Part shown: positions 54,553-54,642 of the stretch, piece by piece
How positions within the stretch are numbered: the first letter of the stretch is position 1
Layout: every line of letters starts with the position of its first letter
NCBI RefSeq assembly: GCF_009914755.1
Contig: NC_060928.1
From: the human T2T-CHM13v2.0 reference genome, Homo sapiens
DNA length: 64,000 bases
Strand: one strand, 5' to 3'
Position numbers and translations under genes: made by a program
The notes under the pieces: generated by a model
Told to the model about the DNA's origin: nothing
Seen by the model: only the letters and a program-made list of their open reading frames with translations
Database searches by the model: none

Positions 54553-54642
54553 GTCTGCTGCAAGCATGCAGCAGCAAACTGCTGCAGGGGGTAGCTGAAG
54601 GAGGACCTCTCCGGCTCACCCGGAGTGCTTCTTTCTTTGCAG
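54553..54642 (+). CDS. FNIP2: FNIP2 in-frame cassette exon ([30 protein letters not shown]), paralogous to FNIP1 alternative exon
   Basis: Pyrimidine tract plus ctctag| acceptor, CAG|gtttgt donor, 90 nt, phase 1-1, no stop; GPLRLxRSASFFA matches recalled FNIP1 [13 protein letters not shown]. Confidence 0.85.

What the first reader, a model, noticed from the sequence alone, without database searches (positions are those of the whole stretch)
54553..54642. Cassette exon that would add an AMPK-type phospho-switch ([10 protein letters not shown]) to FNIP2
Seen: a 90-nt, phase 1-1, stop-free exon with a good acceptor and weak donor (CAG|GTTTGT), 172 nt after exon 6, encoding [30 protein letters not shown]. 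As I recall, the reference 1114-aa FNIP2 reads ...TGSNL-AHSTP... and skips it, whereas FNIP1 has a paralogous alternatively spliced exon (...[13 protein letters not shown]) whose RSAS serines (S230/S232 by my recall) are AMPK sites that inhibit FLCN-FNIP1 and activate TFEB. The motif fits AMPK consensus (L at -5, R at -3) and an RSxS 14-3-3 core. Inference: splicing decides whether FNIP2 carries this site, and work with the reference cDNA would miss it.
Basis: partly seen in the sequence, partly recalled or inferred. Interest (0 to 1): 0.8.

Follow-up and report, generated by a model that had tools for sequence, protein, structure and literature searches.

The report
FNIP2 alternative exon with AMPK-type site
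A real, already annotated 90-base optional exon of human FNIP2, conserved from sharks to people, adds the two-serine motif that the energy sensor AMPK phosphorylates in the sister protein FNIP1, and the standard FNIP2 protein used for solved structures lacks it.

Summary
The exon is there as described: window 54553-54642, 90 nt, phase 1-1, open, 172 nt after exon 6. It encodes [30 protein letters not shown]. It is not new as a feature, because the hub's RefSeq table already lists it among exons of other FNIP2 transcripts.

AG/GT ends plus an open frame are not beyond chance: 34 such candidates lie in the same intron. Homology decides it.
- The peptide hits only two places in the whole genome: itself and FNIP1 exon 7 (84 nt, same phase, residues 208-235, which hold S220/S230/S232).
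- RSASFFA is unchanged in 19 FNIP2 proteins from sharks to gorilla.
- All three solved FNIP2 chains skip the exon.
- A published commentary aligned FNIP1 S230/S232 to FNIP2 T214/S216, which are exon-6 residues of the skipped form.
- A published mouse-lung table holds a 101/90/72-nt Fnip2 skipped-exon event. PSI is about 0.8 in controls and falls in silicosis, in parallel with the Fnip1 84-nt exon.

AMPK phosphorylation, any functional effect and human PSI remain untested. The "weak donor" was not supported. A second RSAS site (S244) stays in both isoforms.

Verdict: a sound, testable hypothesis on a known exon. Interest is moderate.

The parts
54280..54380 (+). FNIP2 constitutive exon 6 (101 nt). 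It ends ...CRTGSNL plus one spare G.
   Evidence: Its translation equals residues 186-218 of PDB FNIP2 chain 6ulg_N. T214 and S216 lie here.
54381..54552 (+). Short T-rich intron (172 nt) before the cassette, with a long pyrimidine tract and short GT/TG runs.
   Evidence: T makes up 51% here against 32% in the window. 16 of 20 positions at -23..-4 are pyrimidines. The mouse event has 158 nt here.
54553..54642 (+). Alternative cassette exon: 90 nt, phase 1-1, 30 codons.
   Evidence: plus the hub's RefSeq table ('exons of other transcripts').
54606..54641 (+). Codons for [12 protein letters not shown]. The two serines are at 54624-54626 and 54630-54632. By my arithmetic they would be S243 and S245 of a 1144-aa long form.
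   Evidence: In alignment A1 (19 sequences) P, the second L, S, A, S, F and F never vary. The stretch is identical to FNIP1 224-235 except T for I.
54643..54672 (+). Donor and the first 30 nt of the downstream intron (gtttgtgtggaatgctgag...), TG-rich and conserved.
   Evidence: GTTTG is shared with FNIP1 exon 7. There are 7 TG dinucleotides in 30 nt, which is the top 0.5% of the window's 30-mers. All 11 database ORFs that run through the donor continue with GLCGM, including bird-like and shark-like ones.
56171..56242 (+). FNIP2 constitutive exon 7 (72 nt), (A)[23 protein letters not shown]. It begins the second, constitutive RSAS site.
   Evidence: residues 220-242 of 6ulg_N.

Best explanation
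Window 54553-54642 is a genuine, ancient, alternatively used coding exon of FNIP2.

What it encodes. It inserts 30 residues into the linker between the FNIP_N and FNIP_M regions. The conserved core of the insert, P-L-x-L-x-R-S-A-S-F-F-A, is the same linear motif that in the paralogue FNIP1 (exon 7, residues 208-235) carries the AMPK sites S230 and S232.

What splicing changes. Inclusion gives a long FNIP2 with two AMPK-type acceptor serines.
- The first serine has L at -5, R at -4 and F at +4.
- The second has L at -5 and R at -3.
Skipping gives the 1114-aa reference form, which keeps only the downstream constitutive RSAS site.

Most likely mechanism. AMPK, possibly with related kinases that prefer LxRxxS, phosphorylates these serines in the long form. 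This couples FLCN-FNIP2 to energy stress as reported for FLCN-FNIP1. Splicing sets how much of the FNIP2 pool can respond.

Shown: the exon, its frame, its conservation, its paralogy, its absence from the reference and from solved chains, and its alternative use in mouse lung.
Inferred: phosphorylation, the kinase, and the effect on RagC/D GAP output and on TFEB/TFE3.
For: Only two matches in the genome. The cassette peptide finds itself and chr5 132230556-132230639(-). The chr5 match is an 84-nt, phase 1-1 exon encoding FNIP1 208-235.

Similarity of the two exons. 18 of 28 aligned residues are identical. A 19-nt block, C TCTTTCTTTGCAG|GTTTG, is identical across the exon-intron junction. The last four codons are identical, while 10 of the other 14 same-residue codons differ at silent sites.

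Conservation. RSASFFA is unchanged in all 19 FNIP2 proteins inspected: four sharks and rays, bichir, gar, bowfin, two eel-group fishes (Anguilla, Albula), arapaima, two frogs, turtle, alligator, lizard, chicken, opossum, mouse and gorilla. In alignment A1 both serines, the L at -5 of the second serine, and P, A, F and F never vary.

Position in the protein. The cassette lies between Pfam FNIP_N (69-190) and FNIP_M (351-584) of a 1167-aa gorilla protein.

Absence from solved chains. All three solved FNIP2 chains lack it.

FNIP1 precedent. Passages name S220, S230, S232, S261 and S593 as AMPK sites of FNIP1.

Alternative use in mouse. The Fnip2 event is 101/90/72 nt. PSI is 0.82, 0.73 and 0.83 in controls, 0.41-0.81 in early silicosis and 0.48-0.69 in late silicosis.

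Alternative use of the human paralogue. FNIP1 exon 7 is alternative in human cell lines, and its inclusion falls on TDP-43 loss. That paper's primers map uniquely on either side of the 84-nt exon.
Against: - No phosphorylation data for the FNIP2 cassette were found. The search for 'RSASFFA' returned 0 papers, and the one phosphoproteomic supplement I opened held no usable file.
- Human inclusion levels are unknown to me.
- The motif also fits other basophilic kinases.
- The R at -4 of the first serine is Q, H or W in the cartilaginous fishes and the bichir.
- The +4 residue of the second serine is Ala, a weak hydrophobic.
- The counts of cassette-bearing proteins are biased, because both database queries contained the cassette.
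- Many of those proteins are computer-predicted isoforms.
- The mouse exon is identified by gene name and exon lengths, not by sequence.
Confidence: 0.6

Rival explanations
1. The cassette serines are phosphorylated mainly by other basophilic kinases that accept LxRxxS (for example AMPK-related kinases, CaMK or PKD family). Alternatively they serve chiefly as a phospho-dependent docking site such as for 14-3-3. AMPK would then play no major part in FNIP2.
For: The invariant residues are L at -5 and R at -3 of the second serine. By recalled general knowledge this core is shared by several kinase families. R-S-x-S gives the first half of a 14-3-3 mode I site.
Against: The nearly identical FNIP1 motif is reported as an AMPK site. 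The Pro at +2 of the recalled mode I 14-3-3 consensus is absent; the residue there is Phe.
Confidence: 0.2
2. The cassette is kept for a reason unrelated to phosphorylation. It might form a binding or folding element of the linker, with the serines conserved as part of that surface.
For: The first half of the cassette, G-x-L-Q-x-C-S-S-K-L-L, is also fairly conserved in FNIP2 from sharks to human. It has no kinase-motif reading.
Against: The most strictly conserved part is exactly the RSASFF core shared with FNIP1's mapped sites. The insert lies outside the Pfam domains.
Confidence: 0.1
3. In human tissues the exon is included at negligible levels. The long form would then have no physiological weight in people, even though the exon is conserved.
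For: The selected RefSeq transcript skips it (hub table). I could not see any human junction counts.
Against: The exon is conserved over all jawed vertebrates inspected, including the intron flank. PSI is about 0.8 in normal mouse lung. RefSeq lists the exon in other human transcripts (hub table).
Confidence: 0.07

Closest known systems
FNIP1 exon 7 (84 nt, residues 208-235), an alternative exon reported as TDP-43-dependent
   Same: Both exons sit between homologous exons and have phase 1-1. 18 of 28 residues are identical, and the RSASFFA end is identical. The donor begins CAG|GTTTG in both, and the downstream flank is TG-rich in both. Both are alternative, and both fall together in mouse silicosis lung.
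   Different: FNIP1 exon 7 is 6 nt shorter. It also carries S220 in an RRAFS context. Human FNIP2 has Ala at that position. Mouse and bird FNIP2 have Ser there but no basic residue at -3 or -4. The upstream intron is 172 nt in FNIP2 and about 6 kb in FNIP1. AMPK phosphorylation is published for FNIP1 only.
RefSeq FNIP2 transcripts other than the selected NM_020840.3
   Same: The hub's table lists exactly 54553-54642 among exons of other transcripts. A partial human FNIP2 protein with the cassette is in NCBI (P0006).
   Different: That annotation says nothing about function. The link to the FNIP1 AMPK sites was not found in the papers I could search.
AMPK substrate motif: hydrophobic at -5, basic at -4 or -3, hydrophobic at +4 (recalled general knowledge)
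   Same: The first serine has L at -5, R at -4 and F at +4. The second serine has L at -5 and R at -3.
   Different: The +4 residue of the second serine is Ala. No kinase assay exists for this sequence.

Membership tests
Coding cassette exon of FNIP2 | AG acceptor and GT donor, a length divisible by 3, and an open frame in the phase set by the neighbouring exons | tested here: met
   These features alone are not beyond chance: 34 such candidates lie in the same intron.
Coding cassette exon of FNIP2 | The same insert at the same place in orthologues | tested here: met
   all 19 inspected species, from sharks to gorilla, have the insert between ...GSNL/SSIG and [11 protein letters not shown]. 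The sample was retrieved with cassette-bearing queries.
Coding cassette exon of FNIP2 | Transcript evidence for both inclusion and skipping | tested here: inconclusive
   Mouse: a published PSI table shows a 101/90/72-nt event with PSI 0.41-0.83, identified by gene name and exon lengths only. Human: only the hub's RefSeq table; no junction counts were seen.
Paralogue of FNIP1 exon 7 | Sequence similarity at the homologous position and in the same phase | tested here: met
   The FNIP1 exon is the only other genome match. FNIP1 residues 208-235 are followed by the exon homologous to FNIP2 exon 7, at 237-259.
AMPK phosphorylation site | Hydrophobic at -5, basic at -4 or -3, hydrophobic at +4 | tested here: met
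   The first serine meets all three. The second serine meets -5 and -3 and has Ala at +4. The consensus is recalled, not taken from a call.
AMPK phosphorylation site | Phosphorylated by AMPK in vitro and AMPK-dependently in cells | not testable with these tools
   No data were found. The primary FNIP1 paper is not held.
14-3-3 mode I site (R-S-x-pS-x-P, recalled) | R at -3, S at -2 and P at +2 | tested here: not met
   R and S are present, but +2 is Phe, not Pro.
TDP-43-dependent exon | UG-rich binding sites near the exon, and loss of inclusion on TDP-43 depletion | tested here: inconclusive
   TG enrichment is seen in the flanks, but the runs are short, (TG)2-4. TDP-43 dependence is published for FNIP1 exon 7 only. 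Nothing was found on FNIP2.

The most novel reading that the evidence does not exclude
The paralogous cassettes of FNIP1 (exon 7) and FNIP2 (this exon) form one ancient, co-regulated splicing switch. The switch would use shared TG-rich elements next to a conserved unusual donor. Skipping removes the clustered AMPK acceptor serines from both FNIP proteins at once. Cells would thereby tune, or in disease lose, the coupling of FLCN-FNIP to energy stress. Candidate settings are inflamed or fibrotic lung and loss of TDP-43 function.
Probability: 0.2. Interest if true: 0.75.

Novelty: new member of a known kind. Interest (0 to 1): 0.5.

Why it matters
FNIP1 and FNIP2 are treated as largely redundant partners of the tumour suppressor FLCN. 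AMPK control has been mapped only on FNIP1.

If the long FNIP2 carries working S230/S232-type sites, three things follow.
- Statements in print that the FNIP2 counterparts lie outside AMPK motifs rest on the skipped isoform.
- All three solved FNIP2 chains are the skipped isoform. Rescue and GAP experiments that use the same skipped form would test a protein that cannot receive this input.
- Proteomic searches against canonical sequences alone cannot see the peptide.

In FNIP1, S220, S230 and S232 all sit in an alternative exon, so the AMPK responsiveness of both proteins may be set by splicing.

The idea can be tested directly with existing reagents. It is a hypothesis on an already annotated exon, not a new element.

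Tried and rejected
- Raw exon features as evidence. Rejected, because 34 comparable candidates lie in the same intron and 1,356 in the window.
- 'Weak donor'. Not supported by consensus count or by U1 duplex energy.
- Non-coding RNA on either strand of 53800-56600. No Rfam match was found. Minus-strand ORFs over the exon look like chance.
- Structure prediction of the linker, to show disorder. The tool was not accepting jobs. The linker claim therefore rests on Pfam boundaries only.
- Primary papers not held: Malik 2023, Hasumi 2008 and Baba 2006. Whether Malik et al. or their supplements show a FNIP2 alignment with the cassette is unknown to me.
- Literature searches that found nothing on this exon or its phosphorylation:
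  - FNIP2 with alternative splicing, exon and isoform;
  - 'RSASFFA' matched anywhere in a word (0 papers);
  - FNIP2 with 'long isoform';
  - FNIP2 with 'cassette exon';
  - FNIP2 with 14-3-3;
  - FNIP2 with TDP-43;
  - FNIP2 with phosphoproteomics.
- Supplements. That of PMC9421328 held 50 characters only. One supplement file of PMC4605304 could not be searched.
- More distant FNIP relatives. Only 5 of 148 unnamed representatives carry the motif at the homologous place. I did not settle whether invertebrate proteins have an equivalent.

Full report
**1. The observation**

- Exon 6 of FNIP2 (54280-54380) ends ...AAC CTA G|gtaaaa.
- After a 172-nt intron comes ...ccatctctag|GTCTGCTGCAAG...TTCTTTGCAG|gtttgtgtgg. 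This gives a 90-nt exon at 54553-54642.
- With the spare G of exon 6 the frame reads [30 protein letters not shown] without a stop.
- The last G joins CA of exon 7 (56171) to give Ala, so the frame is kept (phase 1-1).

The hub's RefSeq table already lists 54553-54642 among exons of other FNIP2 transcripts. The exon is therefore annotated.

Two points need correcting.
- Such features alone are common. A script found 34 AG..GT segments of 60-150 nt, divisible by 3 and open in the right phase, in this one intron. It found 1,356 on the + strand of the window.
- 'Weak donor' is not borne out by crude measures.
  - The donor matches the recalled consensus CAG|GTAAGT at 7 of 9 positions. The six constitutive exons in the window match at 6-7 of 9.
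  - A ViennaRNA duplex with the 5' end of U1 gives -9.4 kcal/mol. The constitutive exons give -6.7 to -9.4, and the median of all 3,813 GT sites is -2.1.
  - The donor is unusual rather than weak, with T at +3 and +4. I could not run MaxEntScan.
- The acceptor is good, with 16 of 20 pyrimidines at -23..-4.

**2. What makes the exon real: paralogy**

A six-frame search of the window's own genome with the 30-residue peptide gave two matches at E <= 10. One is the exon itself. The other is chr5 132230556-132230639 on the minus strand.

Reading that locus shows an 84-nt exon with the same phase. Its acceptor is ...gccatgtag|GTC and its donor is TTTGCAG|gtttgcgatgtgctgtgtggg. It encodes [28 protein letters not shown].

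This is FNIP1 residues 208-235 as found in PDB chain 8je2_H. That chain was the only PDB sequence the cassette peptide hit (E 0.088). FNIP1 S220, S230 and S232 therefore all lie in this one exon. The exon homologous to FNIP2 exon 7 follows at FNIP1 237-259.

Comparison of the two exons:
- 18 of 28 aligned residues are identical.
- At the DNA level a 19-nt block, C TCTTTCTTTGCAG|GTTTG, is identical across the exon-intron junction.
- The last four codons are identical. Ten of the other 14 codons for identical residues differ at silent sites.
- This hints at constraint on the RNA itself at the 3' end of the exon. The sample is small.

**3. Orthologues**

First search. A protein search with 40 residues found 244 proteins among 262 candidates, of which 120 were listed. 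The query was the cassette plus 10 residues translated from the preceding intron, needed to reach the tool's minimum length. The named hits are FNIP2 of primates, rodents, bats, carnivores, marsupials and birds, plus a partial human FNIP2 (P0006).

Second search. A search from a fish-like fragment (P0199, residues 150-242) found 292 proteins among 466 candidates, of which 120 were listed. It added bony fishes, sharks and rays, frogs, turtles, crocodilians and lizards.

Nineteen species inspected. In all 19 the insert sits between the end of exon 6 and [11 protein letters not shown], and RSASFFA is unchanged. The species were gorilla, mouse, opossum, chicken, alligator, softshell turtle, monitor lizard, two frogs, gar, bowfin, bichir, eel, bonefish, arapaima, and four sharks and rays.

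Tally. Of the 218 distinct proteins listed by the two searches, 203 carry the core. The 15 without it are:
- 11 short ORFs, ten unnamed and one a named partial protein. The ten I printed run on into the intron.
- 4 fish models.

This tally is biased, because both queries contained the cassette. It says nothing about inclusion rates, and many entries are predicted isoforms.

Alignment A1. This alignment has 17 FNIP2 and 2 FNIP1-type sequences. The columns that never vary inside the cassette are the first G, P, the L at -5 of the second serine, and S, A, S, F and F. The R before the first serine is K in one FNIP1-type sequence.

Distant relatives. Only 5 of 148 unnamed representatives from the exhaustive search have the motif at the homologous place. 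More distant sequences keep only ...AHSxPVDVP... I did not settle whether invertebrates have an equivalent.

**4. The intron flank**

All 11 database ORFs that read through the donor continue with GLCGM, as the human intron does. They comprise mammal-like, bird-like and one shark-like sequence. The first 14 or so intronic bases (gtttgtgtggaatg) are therefore conserved far beyond mammals. By general knowledge this is typical of regulated alternative exons.

The first 30 intronic bases hold 7 TG dinucleotides in FNIP2, which is the top 0.5% of the window's 30-mers. FNIP1 has 6, the top 1.7%. The upstream intron is 51% T, against 32% in the window. TGTGTG/GTGTGT starts occur 4 times in 362 nt around the exon, against 1.5 per kb in the window. 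These runs are short and are only a lead.

**5. Alternative use**

Human FNIP1. De Conti et al. 2015 (PMC4605304, passages read) show by RT-PCR that FNIP1 'exon 7' is alternative in HEK293 and neuroblastoma lines, and that its inclusion falls on TDP-43 loss. Their primers map uniquely to chr5 132236606-132236630(-) and 132229178-132229202(+). These positions lie on either side of the 84-nt exon.

Mouse Fnip2. Supplementary Tables S2 and S3 of a mouse silicosis lung RNA-seq study (PMC13289353) list a skipped-exon event chr3:79415394-79415494 @ 79415146-79415235 @ 79413514-79413585.
- The exons are 101, 90 and 72 nt, the same as human exon 6, the cassette and exon 7.
- The intron before the middle exon is 158 nt.
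- PSI is 0.82, 0.73 and 0.83 in three controls, 0.41-0.81 in eight early samples and 0.48-0.69 in seven late samples.
- The dPSI is -0.20 (early) and -0.22 (late).

Mouse Fnip1. The same tables list Fnip1 chr11:54373321-54373412 @ 54378538-54378621 (84 nt) @ 54380095-54380166 (72 nt).
- PSI is 0.62, 0.66 and 0.64 in controls, 0.30-0.48 early and 0.31-0.50 late.
- The dPSI is -0.245 (early) and -0.25 (late).

The two paralogous cassettes therefore fall together. The paper's main text names Fnip2 once and Fnip1 not at all. I identify the mouse exons by gene name and lengths, not by sequence. I saw no human junction counts for FNIP2.

**6. What the reference form lacks, and who used it**

In all three solved FNIP2 chains, exon 6 and exon 7 are separated by one residue:
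- 6ulg_N: residues 186-218 and 220-242.
- 6nzd_I: 189-221 and 223-245.
- 8dhb_I: 423-455 and 457-479.
None of the three matched the cassette.

A commentary on the FNIP1 work (PMC10445941, passage read) makes two statements. Only S230, S232 and S261 are conserved in FNIP2, as T214, S216 and S244. And T214 and S216 do not lie in conventional AMPK motifs. T214 and S216 are the T and S of ...CRTGSNL at the end of exon 6. That alignment was therefore made on the skipped form.

With the cassette, the true counterparts are the two serines of [10 protein letters not shown]. By my arithmetic they would be S243 and S245 of a 1144-aa long form.

S244 of the short form (IARSAS) is constitutive and stays in both isoforms.

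PMC10849678 states that S220 is not conserved in FNIP2. For human this holds even with the cassette, which has Ala at the aligned position. Mouse, bird and reptile FNIP2 have Ser there, but with no basic residue at -3 or -4.

PMC12814917 says the AMPK site near the cysteine degron is not conserved in FNIP2.

**7. Mechanism**

The insert lies between Pfam FNIP_N (69-190) and FNIP_M (351-584) in a 1167-aa gorilla protein, at about residues 242-271. It is therefore outside the recognised domains.

Against the recalled AMPK consensus (hydrophobic at -5, basic at -4 or -3, hydrophobic at +4):
- The first serine has L, R and F.
- The second serine has L at -5, R at -3 and Ala at +4.
The FNIP1 motif differs only by I for T, and by V for A at the next-exon residue.

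The most likely reading (confidence about 0.6) is that long FNIP2 is phosphorylated at these serines by AMPK, as FNIP1 is, and that splicing sets the responsive fraction.

Evidence against, or open:
- There are no phosphorylation data.
- Other LxRxxS kinases fit the motif equally well.
- The -4 Arg of the first serine is not kept in cartilaginous fishes or the bichir.
- A 2026 preprint (10.64898/2026.05.20.726614, passages read) reports that FNIP1 phosphosite mutants did not change FLCN GAP activity in its assays. It also says that the FNIP1 study did not identify sites in FNIP2.

**8. Novelty**

The exon is annotated, so as a sequence feature it is known.

I did not find its link to the FNIP1 AMPK sites in the papers I could search. 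Nor did I find a statement that FNIP1's S220/S230/S232 sit in an alternative exon; bear on that only indirectly. The primary FNIP1 paper and its supplements are not held and may bear on this.

I file the finding as a new member of a known kind: a second, paralogous copy of a characterised phospho-site cassette. Interest is 0.5. The hypothesis is well founded, directly testable and corrects a published alignment. It rests on a known exon, and the biochemistry is wholly inferred.

Noticed in passing
window 26593-27177 (ORF from 27002): The annotated alternative first exon encodes MCGGTANTTNQPESWQ...HTELDN. This is the N-terminus of predicted primate and mouse FNIP2 isoforms (P0041, P0018, P0104), and it replaces the usual MAPTLLQK... 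start. It has no AG acceptor; its donor is CAG|gtttga. In the mouse silicosis table, an alternative-first-exon event of Fnip2 joined to a 127-nt exon rises from PSI 0.03-0.04 to 0.09-0.38. I did not settle which first exon that PSI refers to.
   Followed up: partly
L002 1500-1583 (minus strand) = chr5 132230555-132230638: FNIP1 S220, S230 and S232, three of its five reported AMPK sites, all lie in the 84-nt alternative exon 7. Skipping that exon would remove them together. I found no paper that says so.
   Followed up: partly
window 54643-54657: The first 14 or so bases of the intron after the cassette are conserved enough that all 11 database ORFs which run through the donor read GLCGM, as in human. 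They include bird-like and shark-like sequences. This is a candidate intronic splicing element.
   Followed up: partly
window 55041-55103: A (TC)31.5 microsatellite lies in the intron between the cassette and exon 7.
   Followed up: no
window 62637-62719: This annotated 83-nt exon of other transcripts has no AG before it (...ccccttttg|TGT), and its length is not divisible by 3. Its donor is TAT|gtaagt. It may be a transcript start or a frame-breaking exon.
   Followed up: no
proteins P0106 (turkey) and P0126 (unnamed, shark-like): Some database gene models around this exon are faulty. P0106 carries intron-derived residues before the cassette, and P0126 runs through the donor into the intron. 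Such models should not be counted as isoforms.
   Followed up: no
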